A stretch of 64,000 nt of DNA. Origin: Candidatus Amesbacteria bacterium GW2011_GWC2_45_19 (GTDB lineage Bacteria > Patescibacteriota > Microgenomatia > CAZETR01 > Amesbacteraceae). This document shows positions 3,220-36,627 of this stretch, piece by piece. The notes under the pieces were generated by a model. The model ran no database searches. It saw only the letters and a list, made by a program, of their open reading frames with translations, and was not told the DNA's origin. The stretch lies in NCBI GenBank assembly GCA_001001555.1, contig LCKS01000004.1, forward strand, positions 36,130 to 100,129, read 5' to 3'. The position numbers and the translations under genes were made by a program. Numbering within the stretch: position 1 is the stretch's first letter; each line of letters starts with the position of its first letter.

Positions 3220-4146
3220 TCAGCGGGTAAGATATTTGTCAATGTTCAAATTGTGTTCTTCGATAGTGACGGCATAATGAGTGGTCCCGTCGGGGGCGTG
3301 CAGATAAAACCAGTAAGGCGAAATTCGGGGAGAGCGGGCGGCTTCAATGGAGGCTAAGCCAGGATTGGCAATGGGAGTGGGGGGAAAGCCAGGATAGATG
3401 TAAGTGTTGTAGATGGAAGGATAACGCGTATCTGTAACAGGAGACCAATCGCCGCGGGCATACTGGACAGTGGCGTCTACCTGAAGGGGCCAGCCGGCCC
3501 TAAGACGTTTGAGAAGAATCCCGGCTACGATGGGACGATCGGCTACAGTTCTGGTTTCCCGCTCAACCAGTGAAGCCAAAATCAGAATATCCGGGTCGAT
3601 GGGGCCTACTTTACGGTCAAAAGTAGAAACCATAGTGTCCACAATATCTGCCGGCGTGGCGTAGGTGGGAATGAGGTAGGTATCGGGAAAGAGACGGCCT
3701 TCAAGAGTGGCGGTTAGAGACAAAAAAGTAGTAGTATCAAAATTCTCCAGATTGGAAGCTAGGCGGGCGGCAATTTGCTCCCGGCGCCAACCCTCCGGAA
3801 TGGTGACCCAAATGTCCCTAGGACCGGCGGTCAGTGAAGTGAGGAGGTTTTTGAGACCGGTACCAGAAGAAATAAGATAAGTCCCCGCTTTAATTTTTTT
3901 GTCCAGGCCGGAAAATATAAAGTATATCTTGGCCACTTGAGCCGAGCGGATAAATTTTTGGGCAAAAAGAGCCTGGGAGACGGCAGAGGCCGACTGGGCG
4001 GGAGTAATGATGAAAGAGCGATGAAGATCTGAAGCAGGATCTAGAGGAGAAAGCTGGCGGGTCCACCAGGTAAAGCCCAATAAAGCGGTTAAAGTGAGAA
4101 GAACAAACGAACCGGCCAGGAGCTTCACGATTTTAGACCTCCTCAA
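3220..4146 (-). CDS. mltG: endolytic murein transglycosylase MltG/YceG family
   Basis: N-terminal TM; motifs DTYLIP, LASLVERE, LQVDATVQYA, SIYNTYIYPGFPPTPIANPG typical of YceG/MltG. Confidence 0.8.
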   Translation of the reverse strand: MRRSKIVKLLAGSFVLLTLTALLGFTWWTRQLSPLDPASDLHRSFIITPAQSASAVSQALFAQKFIRSAQVAKIYFIFSGLDKKIKAGTYLISSGTGLKNLLTSLTAGPRDIWVTIPEGWRREQIAARLASNLENFDTTTFLSLTATLEGRLFPDTYLIPTYATPADIVDTMVSTFDRKVGPIDPDILILASLVERETRTVADRPIVAGILLKRLRAGWPLQVDATVQYARGDWSPVTDTRYPSIYNTYIYPGFPPTPIANPGLASIEAARSPRISPYWFYLHAPDGTTHYAVTIEEHNLNIDKYLTR

Positions 4147-4336
4147 ACAAGGCCCGACGATATTTGTCAGTTTCGGATTCTTTGATAAAAATGCGGCTAC
4201 ACTTTTTACAGATTATTTTAGTGCCTTTAGAGTGTTTTATAGATTTGCCCAAGGAGAGATCGGTACCACAGCCCACACAACGGCCTTGAGAGAGAAGCCA
4301 GGCCTGGACAGGGGCGATGACGTTTTTGAACATCAC
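4133..4336 (-). CDS. small zinc-ribbon protein (CxxC...CxxC), function unknown
   Basis: 67 aa with CVGCG...CKKC; same strand as neighbours; the overlapping plus ORF 4094..4342 judged less likely. Confidence 0.35.
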   Translation of the reverse strand: MMFKNVIAPVQAWLLSQGRCVGCGTDLSLGKSIKHSKGTKIICKKCSRIFIKESETDKYRRALFEEV

Positions 4337-4344
4337 TGGTGACT

Positions 4345-4833
4345 TTAACGGGTTTTAGATTTCCAGTCAAGGCGCTTGCGAAAAATTCCCTCTGTATAGC
4401 CTCCTTCTTTGATAAATTTCTCTTCCAGAGACCTTATCTGTCTATCTAAAAGATAGTTGGTTCTTCTAATAAGGTTGGCCGAATAATTAAGAGGGATAAA
4501 TGGGTTAAGATTGTCCCGTTTACCCCCCTTATCCCACTTGGGTAAAATTGTCAGTTCTCGGGTTCGGGCAAAGTCTTCATAATCTTTAAGCAGTTCTTCG
4601 TTAGACCCCCTGGTTACTCCTAAAAGTTTAATATAACCCTTGAGGCTTTTTTGGAGGTAGCCCTCAACAATACACTGCTTGCTAGATCTGGCGGCTTGAA
4701 CCATCTGTTCTCTGGTTCGTAGATATTCCCTTCCGGAAAGAAACCTGTCGCAAAATTGAATAGTCAGATCGTAGACTTCTATCGAGTTTTGGTAAGTGAT
4801 TAGATACTCGTATCCAGGTTTTGATCCAGCCAT
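4345..4833 (-). CDS. four-helix-bundle protein (Avd / 23S rRNA IVS-like family) with C-terminal extension
   Basis: YQNSIEVYDLTIQF...QMVQAARSSKQCIVEGY...LLGVTRGSNEELLKDY resembles the TIGR02436 pattern (RAA.S...NIAEG ... ArGS..EL). Confidence 0.5.
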   Translation of the reverse strand: MAGSKPGYEYLITYQNSIEVYDLTIQFCDRFLSGREYLRTREQMVQAARSSKQCIVEGYLQKSLKGYIKLLGVTRGSNEELLKDYEDFARTRELTILPKWDKGGKRDNLNPFIPLNYSANLIRRTNYLLDRQIRSLEEKFIKEGGYTEGIFRKRLDWKSKTR

Positions 4834-5156
4834 CCTTGTAATATTATAGTTGCAGACGCCGCGTGTTCCAAATTGCGTCGTTTGGACTTAGTAGTATGCA
4901 ATAGGAATCGACGGGCGTCGTGAGAAGAAAGAGTCTCGTCAACTTTATGCACAATTGCTAACTCCGACAATTTGTCTAAAAAACTTTCCGGACAATCCCC
5001 CACTACAATACCATCTATATTATGTTTACTAATCAGCAATTTAATTGACTGAAGTGCTTTGATGGTCTTAACTGTGGCCAGCGGTTCAGTCAACGGCCCA
5101 ATAGCCAACGCCACTCCCACTCTCGCCGCTCCATAATCAATTCCCAAATAGTTCAT
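4800..5156 (-). CDS. ruvX: Holliday junction resolvase-like YqgF/RuvX
   Basis: MNYLGIDYGAARVGVALA N-terminus, about 118 aa. Confidence 0.75.
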   Translation of the reverse strand: MNYLGIDYGAARVGVALAIGPLTEPLATVKTIKALQSIKLLISKHNIDGIVVGDCPESFLDKLSELAIVHKVDETLSSHDARRFLLHTTKSKRRNLEHAASATIILQGWLDQNLDTSI

Positions 5157-31188: not shown

Positions 31189-33333
31189 ATGGCTGATGTA
31201 AAGACTACTAACAGGATGGTGCCGTTGGATCGGGTGCGCAACATTGGCATAATTGCCCATATCGACGCCGGAAAGACGACGACAACCGAAAGAATTTTGT
31301 TTTACACCGGGAAAAGTTACAAGATTGGAGATATTGACGAAGGAGACACACAAATGGACTGGATGGAGCAGGAAAGAGAACGAGGAATCACCATTGTTTC
31401 GGCTGCAACTACAACCTTTTGGACAGTAAACGACGCAAATTCTCCAGTGGAGGCGGGGTCGTATCGGATAAATATCATCGACACGCCCGGACACATTGAT
31501 TTTACGGCAGAAGTAGAACGGAGCTTACGGGTATTGGATGGGGCAGTAACTGTTTTGGACGCGGAAGAAACGGTACAGTCGCAGACAGAAACGGTGTGGC
31601 GGCAGGCGGACAAATATAAAGTCCCGCGGATAATTTTTGTGAATAAAGTGGATAAACTGGGAGCCAATTTCGAAGGGACAGTCAAAGCAGTCATCGACAG
31701 GCTAGGGGCCAACCCGGCGGTCATGGCCTATCCCATTGGAGTTGAAAATACTTTCCGGGGGGTAGTTCTACTTTTGGAGCGCAAGGCTTTAATTTGGCAG
31801 GGTGACGAAACCGGGGCCAAATTTGTAGAGGAAGAAGTGCCGGCAGAGATGAAAGAAGTGGTAGAGAAATGGCGCAGCCAGTTAATTGAGCAGATTTCAG
31901 AAACAGACGATGACTTGCTAAATAAATTCCTGGCCGGAGAAGAGCCGAGCATTACGGAGCTAAAAACTGCCCTAAGAAAAGCCACTATTGCCTATAAATT
32001 GGTACCCATATACTCGGGGGCATCACTTCGCAATAAAGGGGTGCAGCCGCTTCTGGACGCAGTGGTGGAGTATCTGCCCTCCCCGGTTGACATTGACCAG
32101 GCAAAGGGAGTCAACCCCAAAACTGGGGGTGAAGAGGTCAGAAAAACTATTAATGAAGAAAAATTCTGCGGGCTGGCGTTTAAGATCCAGACCGACCCGC
32201 ATGTGGGACGGCTGACTTATCTGCGGATTTATTCAGGAAAACTCACGGCCGGGCAGGGAGTGTATAACGCCACCAAAGACAAGGAAGAGCGGATTTCCCG
32301 AATGCTTCTGATGCACGCTAACAAGCGGGAAGAGATAGACGCGGCCTACACGGGAGAGATTGTGGCTCTGGTGGGGCTGCGGGAGACGAGTACAGGACAT
32401 ACTCTATGCGACAAAAGCGCACCAATTGTACTCGAGTCTATTACGTTTTCGGAACCGGTTATTTCTTTAGCTATCGAGCCAAAAACTAAACAGGATCAGG
32501 AAAAGATGGGGTTGGCTCTGAATAAATTATCGGACGAGGATCCAACTTTCCGGATCAAGTCTAACCTGGAAACAGGACAGACGATTATTTCCGGAATGGG
32601 AGAATTGCATTTGGAAATTATCGTGGACCGGATGAAACGGGAGTTTGGAGTGGAAGCGACCACGGGAGCTCCCCAGGTGGCATACAAAGAAACTGTCAGA
32701 AAAGCCGCTGAGGCGGAAGGAAAATATATCCGCCAGTCCGGTGGCCGGGGACAATATGGCCATTGCTGGTTGAGACTTGAACCGTTACCCCGAGGCGCAG
32801 GGTTTGAATTTGAGGACGAGATTAAGGGTGGGGCAATTCCAGCAGAATTCATCCCGGCTATTGAAAAAGGGGTCAAGGAAGCTATGGAAAATGGAGTATT
32901 GGCGGGTTTTCCGGGAGTAGATATGAAAGTCGCCTTATTCGACGGAACTTATCACGATGTGGATTCTTCGGAAATGGCGTTTAAAATTGCCGGTTCAATG
33001 GCGTTTCAACATGGGGTGAAATTGGCCGATCCGTGCCTTTTAGAGCCGATCATGAAGGTGGAAGTGTCCACCCCCGAAGACTATATGGGGGATGTAATTG
33101 GTGACTTGTCCAGCAAGCGGGCGCAGATTTTGGGAACTGACAAGCGGGGGCACTTAACCATTATTAACGCTTTTGTGCCCTTGGCCGAACTATCAGGTTA
33201 TGCTACCAAACTGCGGTCCATGTCCCAAGGCCGGGCCACCTATTATATGGAGCCATCCCACTATGAAGAAGTGCCCAAAAACATCGCCGAGAACATCATT
33301 GCTAAATCTGGTAAAGTGACAGCAAATGCTTAA
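31189..33333 (+). CDS. fusA: elongation factor G
   Basis: [27 protein letters not shown]; 714 aa. Confidence 0.9.
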
Positions 33334-33898
33334 GTGGATAATTGGGATATTAATTTTGGTCGGCGGCGGAGTATGGCTGGTGAGCGGGCGGGGCGGTTTG
33401 CCGGGGGAAGCGGTGGCGGATCAGGGAAGAGAACATCGGGACCATGGCAAACTGGATGAGTTTAAATATAACTCTAATCCCCCCGCTTCCGGTCCGCATG
33501 ATGCGGATTGGATACGGCCGGGGGTTTATGGCGAGGCGCAGGATAAATACAAGTTAATCCATTCACTGGAACACGGATATGTGGTCGTGCACTATAACTG
33601 TGCAAAAGCCCTCAGCGCTCAGCCCTCAACGCTCAGTGTGAGCGCACATGAAGATAACGAGGTGGCAACGGATAGTGGAACAATTAAGACTGATTGTGCT
33701 TTGGGCCAACAATTGGCTGATTTTGCCAAGAAAATGGAGTTAAAAAAACTCATTGTCCAACCTAATCCGACGATTGATAAACCAATCATTATGGTGGCCT
33801 GGGACAGGATACTAAAAATGGATACATTTGACGAAAAGCTGGCAGAAAAATTCGTCAAAGCTTTCCGCAATAAAGGCCCGGAAGCAACAATGGAATAA
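33326..33898 (+). CDS. DUF3105 domain membrane-anchored protein
   Basis: TM then [10 protein letters not shown] and [11 protein letters not shown] motifs typical of DUF3105; overlaps the fusA stop by 8 nt. Confidence 0.55.
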
Positions 33899-33947: not shown

Positions 33948-35126
33948 ATGGCTACTTTTGTCAGAAATAAACCCCACGTCAATATCGGAACCATTGGTCA
34001 TGTAGATCATGGGAAGACGACTTTGACGTCCGCTATTACCGTGGTGTTGGCCAAAAAAGGGATGGCCACTGCCAAGAGATATAATGAGATCGATTCGGCT
34101 CCGGAAGAAAAGGCCCGGGGAGTGACCATTAACCTGTCCCATCAGGAATACGAAACTGAGAAAAGACACTACGCCCACATTGATGCTCCGGGGCACGCCG
34201 ACTACATCAAGAACATGATTACGGGCGCAGCCCAGATGGACGGGGCCATTTTAGTGGTGTCCGCTCCGGACGGACCCATGCCGCAAACCCGGGAACACAT
34301 TCTGCTGGCCAAACAGGTAAATGTGCCGGCTATTGTGGTCTTTTTGAACAAATGTGACATGGTGGACGACCCGGAGCTATTAGATCTGGTGGAAATGGAA
34401 GTCCGAGAACTATTAACTAAATATGGATTCCCCGGCAATGACGTGCCTATCATCCGCGGGTCGGCATTAAAGGCTACCGAAGGAGACGCCAAAGCGGAAG
34501 AAGCGGTTTTAGAACTTATTAAGAAGGTGGATGAATATATTCCCGACCCGGTGCGCGAACTGGATAAGCCGTTTTTGATGCCGGTAGAGGATGTCTTTTC
34601 TATCAAGGGCCGGGGAACGGTGGTCACGGGCCGGATCGAGCGCGGAAAAGTGAAAATTAACGACACGATTGAAATTGTAGGCATCAAGGCTACCCAGTCT
34701 ACGGTGGTTACGGGCGTGGAAATGTTTAGAAAACAACTGGACGAGGGATTGGCCGGAGACAATGTGGGAATACTGCTAAGGGGAATTGAAAAGGATCAAG
34801 TAGAGAGGGGCCAAGTCTTGGCCAAGCCAGGCACGGTTACTCCACATACTGAATTTGAAGCTGAAGTATACGTTTTGACCAAAGAGGAGGGCGGGCGGCA
34901 CACGTCTTTCTTTTCGGGATACCGGCCCCAGTTCTACATCCGGACCACTGACGTGACCGGCGAAGTGACATTGGCGGCTGGAGTAGAGATGGTCATGCCC
35001 GGAGACAACGCCAAAGTGAAAGTAAAGCTAATTGCTCCGGTAGCTTTGGAAGAGGGACTGCGGTTTGCTATCCGTGAAGGCGGCAAGACCGTGGGTGCAG
35101 GCGCGGTGACCAAGATCATCGCATAA
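33948..35126 (+). CDS. tuf: elongation factor Tu
   Basis: [23 protein letters not shown]; 392 aa. Confidence 0.95.
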
Positions 35127-35145: not shown

Positions 35146-35454
35146 ATGGCAAAAGGAAGACTACGAGTCCGGCTGAAGTCTTTTGACCATCGGGTCGTAG
35201 ACGAAACAGCCGCCAAGATACTAGAAACGGCTTTGGCCACTGGGGCTAAAGTATCGGGTCCGGTTCCTTTGCCGACTGACCGAAAATTAATTGTGGTGAC
35301 GTCCTCGCCCCATGTGGACAAAAACGCCCGGGAACACTTTGAGATGCTGGTGCACAAACGCTTGATTGATATTCTGGACCCTACACCCAAAACAATAGAG
35401 TCTCTTTCCAACCTGGAACTGCCGGCGGGAGTGGATATTGAGATCAAGATGTAA
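35146..35454 (+). CDS. rpsJ: 30S ribosomal protein S10
   Basis: [23 protein letters not shown]; 102 aa. Confidence 0.9.
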
Positions 35455-35462
35455 AAAGCCCG

Positions 35463-35780
35463 CTATTCATTCGTGGTTGTTCCATGGCTAATTTTGGCAG
35501 ACCGGATGCGAACTTGATGGGGAGAGACAATAACAATATTTTGGCGATAATTTTTTTCATTTAGTTGTGACAGTAACTGAAAAACTCTTTGATTAATCAA
35601 TTTAATTGATAACTCGTTGGGAAAGCGGAGAACGGCCTTCTTTTGTTGAGCGAAGGAGAATATTTCCGAGTCCGAATAGCCTCGCAAGCCGTGGTCACGG
35701 ATATCGAACACGGTAAAGCCTAGGGACTCAAGAACTGGTTTTAGCGATCGATGGAGGTCCTCGTCAATTACGGCATTCAT
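35463..35780 (-). CDS. DUF5615 (PIN-like) putative toxin
   Basis: MNAVIDEDLHRSL...GFTVFDIRDHGLRGYSDSEIFSFAQQKKAVL matches the DUF5615 pattern. Confidence 0.6.
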   Translation of the reverse strand: MNAVIDEDLHRSLKPVLESLGFTVFDIRDHGLRGYSDSEIFSFAQQKKAVLRFPNELSIKLINQRVFQLLSQLNEKNYRQNIVIVSPHQVRIRSAKISHGTTTNE

Positions 35781-36010
35781 GCCGATAAAAATCGTTCTGA
35801 AGAGACAATGGCTGCGGCGTATTGGAGCGCGGCCATGACTTGCTCCCGAGTCAAGTCATACTCGCCTCTAACCGCCTCAATTTCCATACCGCCTGCGATT
35901 TTCCCCACTACCAACTCTACTGGTACTCTCGTGCCGGCAATTACCGGTTTACCAAACCGCACCTTAGGATCAACCTTAATCAACTTTTTGAGTTTAGGAG
36001 TCATGCTCAC
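35777..36010 (-). CDS. DUF433 putative antitoxin
   Basis: DPKVRFGKPVIAGTRVPVELVVGKIAGGMEIEAVRGEYDLTREQVMAAL is the DUF433 signature; 4-nt overlap with the DUF5615 gene. Confidence 0.65.
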   Translation of the reverse strand: MSMTPKLKKLIKVDPKVRFGKPVIAGTRVPVELVVGKIAGGMEIEAVRGEYDLTREQVMAALQYAAAIVSSERFLSA

Positions 36011-36065
36011 TGTGAGAATACAGGGCGCATACTGCGGATAACGTAAGTGCGGACGGCGAACTTTA

Positions 36066-36090
36066 GAAAGTGCTTTCCGGCACTTTTTTT
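36066..36090 (+). terminator. terminator-like hairpin AAAGTGC-tttccg-GCACTTT followed by T7, immediately upstream of rplC start
   Basis: 7-bp perfect stem plus a TTTTTTT run on the plus strand; it could insulate the rp operon from antisense TA transcription, or attenuate. Confidence 0.4.
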
Positions 36091-36096
36091 GTGCAT

Positions 36097-36627
36097 ATGT
36101 TGAATACTATTTTTGCCAAAAAAAAGGAAATGACCATGAGATATACCTCCGATGGAAGGCAGGCGGGGGTAACTTTGCTTTCCATATTACCCACGACTGA
36201 TGCCGGGACACGTACTGTTGAAAAACACGGGTATGCCGCCCAAATTCTTAAAATTCAAATGACAAATAACAAATATCAAATAAAAGAAGTCCGCAACGTA
36301 AAAGAGGCGGACTTTTTAGTTGGGGATGTAGTGAAAGTAAGAGGAGTGTCTAAGGGCAAAGGGTTTGCCGGGGTGGTAAAAAGACACGGATTTGCCGGCG
36401 GACCCAGAACCCACGGCCAATCTGACCGCGAAAGAGCTCCCGGATCCATCGGACAAACGACCACTCCGGGACGGGTGTACCGGGGAAAGAGAATGGCGGG
36501 CAGAATGGGTGGAGAAACTGTGACCACAAAGGGGCTCAAAGTTTTGGATATTAACGAAAAAGAGATAGCGATTATTGGAGCGATACCGGGACACCGAGGA
36601 ACGCTGGTCAGGATTACAAAAATATGA
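36097..36627 (+). CDS. rplC: 50S ribosomal protein L3
   Basis: Start chosen at ATG MLNTIFAKKKEMTMRY (the track begins at an upstream GTG); GFAGGPRTHGQSDRE..GR L3 motifs. Confidence 0.85.
   Translation: MLNTIFAKKKEMTMRYTSDGRQAGVTLLSILPTTDAGTRTVEKHGYAAQILKIQMTNNKYQIKEVRNVKEADFLVGDVVKVRGVSKGKGFAGVVKRHGFAGGPRTHGQSDRERAPGSIGQTTTPGRVYRGKRMAGRMGGETVTTKGLKVLDINEKEIAIIGAIPGHRGTLVRITKI

What the first reader, a model, noticed from the sequence alone, without database searches (positions are those of the whole stretch)
35463..36097. A TA-like pair (DUF433 + DUF5615/PIN-like) inserted antisense between rpsJ and rplC
In nearly all bacteria rpsJ is immediately followed by rplC. Here a 640-bp segment lies between them and encodes, on the opposite strand, a textbook DUF433 protein and a DUF5615 PIN-like protein with a 4-nt overlap. 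A strong plus-strand hairpin with a T7 run sits only about 7 nt before the rplC ATG. Convergent transcription into the most highly expressed operon, with a terminator in front of rplC, means either rplC has its own promoter or the hairpin acts as an attenuator. This is an unusual place for a selfish module to persist.
Basis: partly seen in the sequence, partly recalled or inferred. Interest (0 to 1): 0.65.

Follow-up and report, generated by a model that had tools for sequence, protein, structure and literature searches.

The report
Decayed toxin-antitoxin cassette before rplC
A known type of toxin-antitoxin gene pair does sit backwards between two ribosomal-protein genes of a groundwater Amesbacteria genome, but its toxin is crippled, the site is a variable spacer in this bacterial group, and the hairpin in front of rplC is a conserved regulatory leader unrelated to the insert.

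Summary
Between rpsJ (35146-35454) and rplC (36097-36627) lie, on the minus strand, a full-length DUF433 antitoxin gene (35777-36004) and a DUF5615 toxin gene (35463-35780). They overlap by ATGA. A hairpin plus T7 ends 6 nt before the rplC ATG.

The interpretation needs revision:
- **Toxin.** It carries an in-frame 72-nt deletion that removes 24 residues, including invariant D55, F58 and H69. It is probably inactive.
- **Site.** It is not exceptional in this clade. Of 95 Patescibacteria relatives, 7 have rpsJ and rplC within 30 nt and 31 have gaps above 400 nt with unrelated cargo. The same TA pair occupies this site in three other lineages, with intact toxins.
- **Hairpin.** It belongs to a conserved rplC leader found with or without cargo (13 of 14 close relatives). 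It is not part of the insert.
- **Promoters.** Five other assemblies of this population or its relatives carry 34 nt that the window lacks. That piece holds the rplC promoter (TTGATT-17-TATAAT) interleaved back-to-back with the TA promoter.

Verdict: a degenerate member of a known TA family sitting at a boundary between two transcription units. The leader and the variable spacer look undescribed and are the more interesting part.

The parts
35146..35454 (+). rpsJ (ribosomal protein S10), last gene of the fusA-DUF3105-tuf-rpsJ unit. In relatives its last codons supply the -35 of the rplC promoter.
   Evidence: Pfam Ribosomal_S10, E 3e-32. Gene order. The -35 lies in the rpsJ tail of relatives.
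35463..35780 (-). DUF5615 (COG4634-type, PIN-like) toxin gene remnant, 105 aa, with an in-frame 24-codon internal deletion. Its stop codon lies 8 nt from the rpsJ stop (convergent).
   Evidence: The Pfam hit covers only profile positions 1-51 of 110. All homologs are 119-125 aa and carry the missing segment LFTADLGFANILQFPPGTHPGIVV. D55, F58 and H69 are invariant in 64 homologs. On the AlphaFold model of intact P0003 (pLDDT 94) the deletion removes the end of strand 49-53, helix 56-59 and strand 72-75.
35628..35634 (.). Scar of the 72-nt toxin deletion: the single remaining copy of a 7-bp direct repeat, GAGAACG (junction 35627|35628).
   Evidence: In L083 the 72 nt are present and flanked by GAGAACG on both sides. 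The same deletion occurs in L001, L002, L176 and L177.
35777..36004 (-). DUF433 (COG2442) antitoxin gene, 75 aa from the conserved ATG. It overlaps the toxin start by ATGA.
   Evidence: Pfam DUF433, 70.6 bits, profile 1-56 of 56. It is 98.7% identical to the L083 antitoxin and 69-70% identical to those of L084 and L085.
36004..36009 (.). Junction (36006|36007) where the window lacks 34 nt, TTGATTATTATAACATTAGCTGGTATAATCCTCT. In other assemblies this piece carries the rplC promoter and, on the other strand, the TA promoter.
   Evidence: L001 and L002 are otherwise 100% and 99.99% identical over 12.3 kb. L083, L175 and L177 also carry the 34 nt. The scanner calls TTGATT-17-TATAAT with TG (10 of 12) in L001 and nothing in the window. 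Inverted repeat ATTATAACA/TGGTATAAT found.
36007..36096 (+). rplC leader, about 90 nt from the predicted transcription start to the start codon. It is conserved in Amesbacteria-like relatives.
   Evidence: Homology with L003 starts at 36008. Alignments. Covariance model R1 gives one hit in the window (36022-36096, 86 bits) and hits in L003/L095, L097, L083, L085, L099 and L008/L102. No Rfam family matches.
36027..36033 (+). Invariant leader block 1, GCATACT. It overlaps the CGCAT stretch (36026-36030) that is complementary to part of block 2.
   Evidence: Invariant in 6 lineages. Pairs with block 2 in the minimum-energy folds of WIN, L003 and L097.
36044..36053 (+). Invariant leader block 2, TAAGTGCGGA. 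It is complementary both to block 1 and to the loop plus 3' arm of the terminator (36076-36085), making it a candidate antiterminator strand or protein-binding site.
   Evidence: Invariant in 6 lineages. The alternative helix pairs in 52 of 54 cells, against 38-54% in slid controls, with no two-sided covariation. It is the minimum-energy fold in L099 and L085.
36067..36090 (+). Terminator-like hairpin (36067-36086) plus T7 run (36084-36090), 6 nt before the rplC ATG. It is the attenuator end of the leader.
   Evidence: -8.1 kcal/mol. The equivalent hairpin plus T-run occurs in 38 of 95 relatives, against 3 on the opposite strand, 0.2 in shuffles and 0 of 41 before rplD. It occurs in 13 of 14 relatives with S10 identity of 75% or more. 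Stem sequences differ between lineages, with two compensatory pairs.
36097..36627 (+). rplC (L3), first gene of the rplC-rplD-rplW-rplB... unit. The true start is 36097, not the 36136 called in public records.
   Evidence: The N-terminus MLNTIFAKKKEMT is conserved in L003 and L005-L007. Pfam Ribosomal_L3. Public gene calls.
35524..35551 (+). Weak promoter-like site (GAGACA-16-GATAAT) inside the toxin gene on the rplC strand. It is the only candidate internal promoter for rplC in the window as given.
   Evidence: 9 of 12 matches, no more than expected by chance. Inference only.

Best explanation
The segment is a type II toxin-antitoxin cassette of the known PIN-like (COG4634/DUF5615) plus DUF433 (COG2442) family. 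It sits in the variable spacer that separates two transcription units in Amesbacteria-like Patescibacteria: ...tuf-rpsJ, and the rplC operon with its own promoter and leader.

The cassette is an old resident. The same pair lies at the same place, toxin stop 1-8 nt from the rpsJ stop, in at least three other lineages.

In this organism it is decaying. A slippage deletion between 7-bp repeats removed 24 core residues of the toxin, including an invariant Asp and His, so the toxin is most likely inactive. The antitoxin gene is intact.

The hairpin plus T7 is not part of the cassette. It is the terminator end of a conserved rplC leader of about 90 nt. That leader contains two invariant blocks that can pair with each other or with the terminator's 3' arm, which is the layout of a transcription attenuator. 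Autogenous control by a ribosomal protein is inferred, not shown.

In the population consensus the rplC promoter (TTGATT-17-TATAAT) and the TA promoter (TGTTATAAT, 8 nt before the antitoxin ATG, so nearly leaderless) are interleaved back to back within 34 nt. The window lacks exactly these 34 nt. This is either a rare variant or an assembly error. If it is real, the TA pair is silent here and rplC depends on read-through from rpsJ.
For: Shown:
- Pfam identities and the half-length toxin match.
- A 24-aa deletion relative to all 70 or so homologs, removing invariant D55, F58 and H69, mapped onto a confident model.
- GAGACG-type 7-bp repeats (GAGAACG) flanking the 72 nt in L083. The deletion is shared by strain variants up to 2% divergent.
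- The same pair between rpsJ and rplC in L083, L084 and L085, all with intact toxins.
- More distant homologs sit in unrelated contexts.
- The rpsJ-rplC gap is highly variable and its cargo heterogeneous. Examples are HicAB in L014, an acyltransferase-like gene in L004, orphan ORFs, ABC transporters and AAA ATPases.
- Hairpin plus T-run conserved before rplC in 38 of 95 relatives (13 of 14 close ones), against 3, 0.2 and 0 in the controls. It is present in relatives without an insert.
- Extended -10 boxes about 100 nt upstream of rplC in 7 relatives.
- The 34-nt piece is present in L001, L002, L083, L175 and L177 and absent only in the window. The scanner calls its promoter.
- Invariant leader blocks and the alternative helix.

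From the literature: PIN-COG2442 pairs were predicted as TA systems (PMC2701414). One of them, VapBC10, was tested, and its antitoxin binds an inverted repeat in its own promoter (PMC3834315).
Against: - The toxin remnant keeps an open frame, and the WIN-L083 dN/dS is 0.19. It does not look like a freely drifting pseudogene and may retain some role.
- No transcription data exist. The promoters, the transcription start and termination at the hairpin are consensus-based inferences.
- The terminator scanner did not flag the hairpin, and its energy is unremarkable.
- The leader body structure has no two-sided covariation, because the blocks are invariant and only 6 lineages are available.
- PIN-like fold membership of the toxin could not be confirmed structurally.
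- Whether the TA pair was inherited vertically or re-inserted at the same site cannot be settled.
Confidence: 0.8

Rival explanations
1. An intact, active addiction or stress module. Its convergent transcription runs into rpsJ-tuf and interferes with expression of the ribosomal-protein genes.
For: - The gene pair has canonical TA layout, with the antitoxin first and an ATGA overlap.
- There is a strong TGTTATAAT box in sister assemblies.
- The toxin stop is only 8 nt from the rpsJ stop, and no terminator follows it on the minus strand.
- Intact versions exist in L083-L085.
Against: - In this organism the toxin lacks 24 residues, including invariant D55 and H69 and about one core strand.
- The window itself lacks the TA promoter.
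- Persistence of the deletion in several strain variants argues that toxin activity is dispensable.
Confidence: 0.07
2. Domesticated regulator. The DUF433 protein, perhaps with the truncated toxin as a co-factor, binds the inverted repeat formed by the two back-to-back -10 boxes. It thereby controls the rplC-operon promoter, coupling an ex-TA module to ribosomal-protein synthesis.
For: - The TA -10 lies inside the spacer of the rplC promoter, and the antitoxin ATG is 2 nt from its -35.
- The inverted repeat ATTATAACA-N5-TGGTATAAT is present.
- The same interleaved architecture occurs in L084 despite sequence divergence.
- The antitoxin is nearly identical between WIN and L083 (dS 0.018) while the toxin has diverged.
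- The toxin frame is kept open, with dN/dS 0.19.
- VapB10, a DUF433 antitoxin, binds an inverted repeat in its promoter and activates transcription (PMC3834315).
Against: - Most close relatives run the same promoter and leader without any DUF433 gene, so the operon does not need it.
- Two extended -10 boxes facing apart form an inverted repeat by necessity.
- No binding data exist.
- The window variant deletes the whole site.
Confidence: 0.1
3. The hairpin plus T7 is simply the terminator of the upstream unit (tuf-rpsJ or the cargo), and rplC is transcribed from a promoter elsewhere. There is no regulated attenuation.
For: - In insert-free relatives it is the first terminator-like site after rpsJ (L006, L010).
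- Hairpin energy is ordinary.
- There is no two-sided covariation for the antiterminator helix.
Against: - Only 0-25 nt separate the T-run from the rplC start in close relatives, which leaves no room for a promoter.
- A conserved extended -10 lies about 100 nt upstream, so rplC transcripts must cross the hairpin.
- Invariant 7- and 10-nt blocks sit in a non-coding leader across lineages whose S10 identity ranges from 81% (L008) to 97% (L003, L097), with L085 known only from short end fragments.
- Block 2 is complementary to the terminator's 3' arm in 52 of 54 cells.
- Cargo in L097 and L008 has its own separate hairpin upstream of the promoter.
Confidence: 0.12
4. The insert is an assembly chimera or contaminant and does not lie between rpsJ and rplC in the real genome.
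For: - Public assemblies of this locus disagree locally. The window lacks 34 nt. L175 lacks 119 nt and 113 nt. L083 is mosaic.
Against: - The same order rpsJ / toxin / antitoxin / leader / rplC is found in six independent assemblies from several samples, and in diverged relatives L084 and L085.
- GC content is not aberrant.
Confidence: 0.01

Closest known systems
PIN-COG2442 (DUF433) type II toxin-antitoxin pairs, e.g. VapBC10 (ssr2962/slr1767) of Synechocystis PCC 6803 and the DUF433-containing VapB45 (Rv2018) of M. tuberculosis, listed with the PIN_10 family
   Same: - A small DUF433 gene comes first, followed by an overlapping PIN-like gene of about 120 aa in intact relatives.
- The family was predicted as a TA system by Makarova et al. 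2009 (PMC2701414).
- VapBC10 was shown to be toxic and neutralised. Its antitoxin binds an inverted repeat in its own promoter (PMC3834315).
- COG4634/DUF5615 is placed in the Mut7-C group of PIN-like domains (PMC5499597).
   Different: - The toxin here has lost 24 core residues.
- The promoter is interleaved with a ribosomal-protein operon promoter, and is missing in the window.
- I did not test whether slr1767 itself is a DUF5615 member.
- No activity data exist for any Patescibacteria member.
E. coli S10 operon leader (L4-mediated transcription attenuation and translational control)
   Same: - A leader of about 100-170 nt precedes the L3-L4-L23-L2... gene block.
- It ends in a terminator hairpin and U-run close to the first start codon.
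- The operon encodes L4, the known regulator in E. coli.
   Different: - In E. coli the leader precedes rpsJ. Here rpsJ belongs to the upstream tuf unit and the leader precedes rplC.
- There is no sequence or Rfam similarity.
- The E. coli element is confined to Gammaproteobacteria (PMC3616713).
- The regulator here is unknown.
Candidate L4 ribosomal leader upstream of rplC-rplD-rplW-rplB in Archaeoglobi (Eckert and Weinberg 2020, PMC7247131)
   Same: A candidate cis-regulatory RNA located directly upstream of rplC at the head of the same gene block.
   Different: It is archaeal and a different motif. It gave no match in the Rfam scans. No bacterial rplC leader is listed in that survey.
Genomic islets integrated at the 3' end of a conserved gene and flanked by direct repeats of that end (as with tRNA/tmRNA-targeting islands)
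   Same: In relatives L003/L095, L005, L008/L102 and L097 the cargo is flanked by 19-45-nt direct repeats of the rpsJ 3' end.
   Different: - No such repeat flanks the TA cassette in the window.
- No integrase or transposase appeared among the 25 most frequent of 48 Pfam families in the cargo ORFs. The remaining families were not listed.
- The duplicated tail also restores the -35 of the rplC promoter, so selection alone, without site-specific recombination, may explain it.

Membership tests
Type II TA, PIN-like (COG4634/DUF5615) toxin with DUF433 (COG2442) antitoxin | Two small adjacent co-oriented genes, antitoxin upstream, coupled or overlapping | tested here: met
   35777-36004 and 35463-35780 on the minus strand, with a 4-nt ATGA overlap.
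Type II TA, PIN-like (COG4634/DUF5615) toxin with DUF433 (COG2442) antitoxin | Antitoxin matches the DUF433 model over its full length, above the curated cut-off | tested here: met
   70.6 bits against a cut-off of 23.6, profile 1-56 of 56.
Type II TA, PIN-like (COG4634/DUF5615) toxin with DUF433 (COG2442) antitoxin | Toxin matches the DUF5615 model over its full length | tested here: not met
   33.9 bits (above the 23.8 cut-off), but only profile positions 1-51 of 110. There is a 24-aa internal deletion relative to all homologs.
Type II TA, PIN-like (COG4634/DUF5615) toxin with DUF433 (COG2442) antitoxin | Toxin keeps the family's invariant acidic and catalytic-candidate residues | tested here: not met
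   D6, E7, D8 and D37 are kept. D55, F58 and H69, invariant in 64 homologs, are deleted.
Type II TA, PIN-like (COG4634/DUF5615) toxin with DUF433 (COG2442) antitoxin | Own promoter directly upstream of the antitoxin gene | tested here: not met
   None in the window. Sister assemblies have TGTTATAAT 8 nt before the ATG, inside the 34 nt that the window lacks.
Type II TA, PIN-like (COG4634/DUF5615) toxin with DUF433 (COG2442) antitoxin | PIN-like (Rossmann-like nuclease) fold of the toxin | tested here: inconclusive
   The model of intact P0003 is a confident alpha/beta fold (pLDDT 94). Foldseek against the PDB gives no hit with E below 0.05, and the sequence search of the PDB gives none. The literature says this group has no solved structure (PMC5499597).
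Type II TA, PIN-like (COG4634/DUF5615) toxin with DUF433 (COG2442) antitoxin | Toxin arrests growth and the antitoxin neutralises it | not testable with these tools
   Needs expression experiments.
Ribosomal-protein leader with transcription attenuator (S10-leader-like) | Stem-loop followed by a U-run, located between a promoter and the first gene of the operon | tested here: met
   Hairpin 36067-36086 plus T7, 6 nt before rplC. The promoter lies about 90 nt upstream in L001, L002, L083, L175 and L177. That promoter is missing in the window itself.
Ribosomal-protein leader with transcription attenuator (S10-leader-like) | Conservation of the element across relatives, with the structure kept while the sequence changes | tested here: met
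   38 of 95 relatives, 13 of 14 close ones. Controls give 3, 0.2 and 0 of 41. Stems differ between lineages, with two pairs changed on both sides.
Ribosomal-protein leader with transcription attenuator (S10-leader-like) | A mutually exclusive alternative (antiterminator) structure | tested here: inconclusive
   Block 36045-36053 is complementary to 36076-36085 in 52 of 54 cells, against 38-54% in slid controls. There is no two-sided covariation. It is the minimum-energy fold in only 2 of 6 leaders.
Ribosomal-protein leader with transcription attenuator (S10-leader-like) | Match to a described leader family | tested here: not met
   No Rfam hit at gathering or E-value thresholds, in the window or in 14 relatives.
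Ribosomal-protein leader with transcription attenuator (S10-leader-like) | Binding of a ribosomal protein (e.g. L4) that changes termination | not testable with these tools
   Needs in vitro transcription and binding assays.
Integrative islet at the 3' end of a gene | Insert flanked by direct repeats of the target gene's 3' end | tested here: not met
   No such repeat in the window or in L001. It is met only for other cargo in L003/L095, L005, L008/L102 and L097.
Integrative islet at the 3' end of a gene | Integrase or recombinase in or beside the insert | tested here: not met
   The window insert holds only the two TA genes. Among cargo ORFs of relatives, none appears in the 25 listed of 48 Pfam families.

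The most novel reading that the evidence does not exclude
In the promoter-bearing haplotype the ex-TA module has been co-opted. The DUF433 protein, with the non-toxic toxin remnant as partner, binds the inverted repeat made of the two interleaved promoters. It thereby sets the transcription rate of the rplC (L3-L4-L23-L2...) operon. Its own nearly leaderless transcript runs antisense into rpsJ-tuf. Together this would form an excludon-like switch linking a former addiction module to ribosome production in a reduced-genome CPR bacterium.
Probability: 0.08. Interest if true: 0.75.

Novelty: new member of a known kind. Interest (0 to 1): 0.42.

Why it matters
The TA pair itself is ordinary: a degenerate copy of a known family. 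The value lies in what the comparison exposed.

1. In Amesbacteria-like and many other Patescibacteria, rpsJ and rplC are not one operon. They are separated by a promoter, a conserved leader and a terminator-like hairpin. This candidate ribosomal-protein attenuator is absent from Rfam and from the surveys I could read.
2. The boundary between the two units is a variable spacer. It collects unrelated cargo, including TA pairs, in organisms with very small genomes. In some cases the cargo is flanked by duplicated rpsJ tails that rebuild the promoter's -35.
3. The TA promoter is physically interleaved with an essential operon's promoter, which is a testable case of regulatory entanglement.

There is also a practical warning. 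Public assemblies of this locus differ by short deletions, one of which removes the whole promoter. Public gene calls also start rplC 13 codons too late.

Tried and rejected
- **Rfam.** Scans of the window (gathering and E up to 10) and of 14 relatives found no family for the leader.
- **Other protein libraries.** PADLOC and NCBIfam gave nothing for either TA protein.
- **Solved structures.** A PDB sequence search with the toxin profile and Foldseek of the AlphaFold model gave no significant match, so the PIN-like fold could not be confirmed.
- **rpsJ-tail repeats.** I looked for direct repeats of the rpsJ tail flanking the TA cassette, as seen around other cargo. None was found.
- **Leader peptide.** A GTG-started 10-codon frame is kept in WIN, L003 and L097, but the frame is not kept in L008 or L085. 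I reject this idea (my reading of the sequences).
- **Covariance model.** The model of the window-type leader found only the six lineages it was built from, plus weak terminator-only hits. The window-type leader is therefore narrow and its body structure remains unproven.
- **More TA-bearing relatives.** The metagenome scan with S10 added no further TA-bearing loci.
- **Drift test.** dN/dS cannot isolate the window branch. The pairwise value of 0.19 is not evidence for or against decay.
Full report
**What is in the window**

The region reads fusA (31189-33333), a DUF3105 gene (33326-33898), tuf (33948-35126) and rpsJ (35146-35454). A 642-nt spacer follows, then rplC (36097-36627), rplD and the rest of the ribosomal-protein block, all on the plus strand.

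The spacer carries two overlapping minus-strand genes.
- The upstream one runs 35777-36004 from its conserved ATG (the ORF extends to a GTG at 36010). It matches Pfam DUF433 end to end (70.6 bits, E 9e-20).
- The downstream one (35463-35780, 105 aa) matches DUF5615 above the curated cut-off, but only over the first 51 of 110 profile positions.
- They overlap by ATGA.

A hairpin (36067-36086, 8 pairs) and a T7 run (36084-36090) end 6 nt before the rplC ATG. The hairpin is -8.1 kcal/mol. Its 61-nt context is not unusual against shuffles (z = -1.45), and the consensus terminator scanner does not list it.

**Source and reality of the locus**

The exact S10 protein occurs on contigs of the Rifle aquifer groundwater metagenome (PRJNA268031) with the same gene order. 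An NCBI record names the organism Candidatus Amesbacteria bacterium GW2011_GWA2_47_70. Six independent assemblies show rpsJ / DUF5615 / DUF433 / rplC, so the insert is not a chimera.

**The toxin is crippled**

About 70 homologs are 119-125 aa long. The window protein aligns to them end to end except for a clean 24-residue gap that removes LFTADLGFANILQFPPGTHPGIVV.
- In an alignment of 64 intact homologs, D6, E7, D8, D37, D55, F58, H69, L75, R76 and R115 are invariant. D55, F58 and H69 fall inside the deletion.
- An AlphaFold model of the closest intact homolog (P0003, pLDDT 94) puts the deleted residues (52-75) on the end of strand 49-53, helix 56-59, a loop and strand 72-75.
- At the DNA level the intact relative L083 has the missing 72 nt flanked by GAGAACG on both sides. 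The window keeps one copy at 35628-35634. This is the signature of replication slippage.
- The deletion is shared by strain variants differing by up to 2% (L176, L177).

The frame stays open, and the pairwise dN/dS to L083 is 0.19. I therefore call the toxin 'probably inactive', not a dead pseudogene.

**The same pair sits at the same site elsewhere, but not generally**

The three closest intact toxin homologs whose contigs could be read are all encoded as DUF433-DUF5615 pairs, antisense between rplC and rpsJ.
- L083 also carries a PhzF-family gene after the toxin. Its contig ends inside that gene, so rpsJ itself is not seen there.
- L084 has S10 84% and EF-Tu 90% identical to the window.
- L085 also carries a Phd-family antitoxin gene.

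The toxin stop lies 8, 8 and 1 nt from the rpsJ stop in the window, L084 and L085. More distant homologs (about 50% identity or less) lie in unrelated neighbourhoods in other CPR phyla.

Among 160 relatives fetched with S10 from genome and metagenome collections, none has the pair. This includes the nearest species L003/L095 and L097, with S10 96-97% identical. The pair is therefore an old, patchily retained resident of this site in a few Amesbacteria-like lineages, not a conserved operon member.

**The site is a variable spacer in this clade**

Across 95 distinct relatives with both genes identified, the rpsJ-rplC gap is distributed as follows:

| Gap (nt) | Relatives |
|---|---|
| 30 or less | 7 |
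| 31-100 | 12 |
| 101-200 | 32 |
| 201-400 | 13 |
| 401-1000 | 13 |
| above 1000 | 18 |

Cargo differs from lineage to lineage:
- a 291-aa orphan ORF, antisense, in L003
- an acyltransferase-like gene in L004
- small orphan ORFs in L005, L007, L008, L097 and L099
- a HicA/HicB pair, antisense, right after rpsJ in L014
- several kilobases of varied genes elsewhere (ABC transporter, MgsA-type AAA ATPase, DEAD helicase, HtrA-like protease)

In four close lineages the cargo is bracketed by direct repeats of the last 19-45 nt of rpsJ (L003/L095, L005, L008/L102, L097). No such repeat flanks the TA cassette.

**The hairpin belongs to a conserved rplC leader**

Close relatives, with or without cargo, show a GC hairpin plus T-run 0-25 nt before rplC, with different stem sequences.
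- Counted uniformly, 38 of 95 relatives have one within 70 nt on the sense strand.
- The controls give 3 on the opposite strand, 0.2 expected from shuffles, and 0 of 41 upstream of rplD.
- Among relatives with S10 identity of 75% or more it is 13 of 14.

About 100 nt upstream of rplC, seven relatives carry an extended -10 box (TGGTATACT, TGATAGAAT, TGCTAAAAT and others). The -35 falls in the last codons of rpsJ or in its duplicated tail. This explains why the duplicated tails are kept.

Between the promoter and the hairpin, six lineages (window, L003, L097, L099, L085, L008) share two invariant blocks: GCATACT (36027-36033) and TAAGTGCGGA (36044-36053).
- The blocks can pair with each other, and do so in the minimum-energy fold of WIN, L003 and L097.
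- Block 2 is also complementary to the loop and 3' arm of the terminator (36076-36085). Across the six sequences 52 of 54 positions pair, against 38-54% when the partner is slid. This alternative is the minimum-energy fold in L099 and L085.
- Because the 5' block never varies there is no two-sided covariation, so the switch is inferred, not shown.

No Rfam family matches. A survey of ribosomal leaders lists only an archaeal L4 leader in front of rplC (PMC7247131). The E. coli S10 leader is reported as confined to Gammaproteobacteria (PMC3616713).

By analogy with that system, I think the most likely mechanism is feedback by a ribosomal protein encoded in the operon, which favours the terminator form. 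This step is inference.

**The missing 34 nt**

L001 and L002 are 100% and 99.99% identical to the window over 12.3 kb, except that they contain TTGATTATTATAACATTAGCTGGTATAATCCTCT between window positions 36006 and 36007. L083, L175 and L177 contain it too.
- The scanner calls TTGATT-17-TATAAT with an upstream TG (10 of 12 matches) in L001 and nothing in the window.
- On the other strand the same piece reads TGTTATAAT, ending 8 nt before the antitoxin ATG. This would give a nearly leaderless message.
- The two -10 boxes form a 9-nt inverted repeat.
- L084 has the same interleaved design with different sequence: TGCTATAAT and TGCTACAAT.

In the population consensus, then, the TA promoter lies inside the spacer of the rplC promoter. 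The window lacks both. The deletion is bounded by a CTT microhomology. I cannot tell whether it is a rare real variant or an error of the source assembly. If real, the TA pair is silent here, and rplC must be read from upstream or from a weak internal site (35524-35551, no better than chance).

**Comparison with what is known**

PIN-COG2442 pairs were predicted as TA systems in 2009 (PMC2701414). One, VapBC10 of Synechocystis, was shown to be a working TA whose DUF433 antitoxin binds an inverted repeat in its promoter and activates it (PMC3834315). COG4634/DUF5615 is classed in the Mut7-C group of PIN-like domains, without a solved structure (PMC5499597).

This agrees with my failure to find structural matches. 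The module is therefore a degenerate new member of a known family. The leader, the variable spacer and the promoter interleaving are, as far as the searched literature and Rfam go, undescribed.

**Unexplained**

Window 35800-36521 is 100% identical to L083 (apart from the 34 nt). Yet the toxin side is only 88-90% identical and the rplC 3' end is unalignable. Synonymous divergence (dS) is 0.018 for the antitoxin against 0.48 for the toxin. This means either recent recombination between strains or a chimeric short contig.

Noticed in passing
L003:3285-3329 and 4303-4347; L008:4282-4308 and 4845-4871; L005:4288-4307 and 4812-4831; L097:~3290-3309 and 3629-3647: In four close lineages the cargo between rpsJ and rplC is flanked by direct repeats of the last 19-45 nt of rpsJ. 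The downstream copy supplies the -35 of the rplC promoter. L099 has two cassettes separated by a degenerate rpsJ tail. The mechanism is unknown: site-specific integration, or selection for promoter repair.
   Followed up: partly
L104, L106, L107, L109, L110, L120 (about 60-110 nt upstream of rplC): A different rplC leader type in other Patescibacteria contains a conserved ATGGAGGTGA: a strong Shine-Dalgarno-like GGAGGTGA that also opens a 6-8-codon mini-ORF (MEV...). A terminator-like hairpin follows. This may be a leader-peptide or anti-SD-binding attenuator.
   Followed up: no
L059, L065, L076, L160, L169, L171 (upstream of rplC): A third leader type has the motif CTAGTTAAAGTCC-hairpin-GGATACTCAACTAGCC. 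The outer helix CTAGTT/AACTAG shows G-U and compensatory changes. A terminator-like hairpin follows. It looks like a structured RNA and is not in Rfam.
   Followed up: no
L097:3755-3838: An extra palindromic element of about 85 nt (GTATCACCCCC...GGGTGATAC, MITE-like) is inserted between the leader terminator and the rplC start codon in one close relative.
   Followed up: no
L097:3590-3612 and L008:~4815-4837: The identical hairpin CCCACCTGAAAGGTGGGATTT lies just upstream of the duplicated rpsJ tail in two different lineages with different cargo. It may be a shared cassette end or a cargo terminator.
   Followed up: no
window 35800-36521 vs L083: A 720-nt block (antitoxin, leader, 5' part of rplC) is 100% identical to L083, while both flanks are strongly diverged. 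This indicates recombination between strains or a chimeric 1.9-kb contig.
   Followed up: partly
window 33326-33898: A DUF3105 gene (190 aa) sits between fusA and tuf, overlapping fusA by 8 nt. Of 111 relatives with readable sequence upstream of tuf, 4 have a hit within 200 nt upstream; L003 has one 400 nt upstream and L096 has a partial one. It is a second clade-specific addition to the str/S10 gene block.
   Followed up: partly
window 36097-36138: Public gene calls start rplC at the ATG at 36136 (163 aa). The N-terminus MLNTIFAKKKEMT, encoded from 36097, is conserved in relatives. The true start therefore lies 6 nt after the T-run and has no Shine-Dalgarno sequence.
   Followed up: yes
L175 (NCBI LCOO01000038.1) vs window 34028-34146 and 35431-35543: Relative to the window, the NCBI assembly of this organism lacks 119 nt inside tuf and 113 nt spanning the rpsJ end and the toxin end. 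This produces a spurious 176-aa 'DUF5615' protein (P0002). Local assembly discrepancies are common at this locus.
   Followed up: partly
L014:4406-4916: A HicA/HicB toxin-antitoxin pair lies antisense immediately after rpsJ in a Blackburnbacteria genome. A different TA family occupies the equivalent position.
   Followed up: yes
window 1-64000: Neither ARAGORN nor Rfam at gathering thresholds finds any tRNA or other RNA gene in the whole 64-kb window.
   Followed up: no
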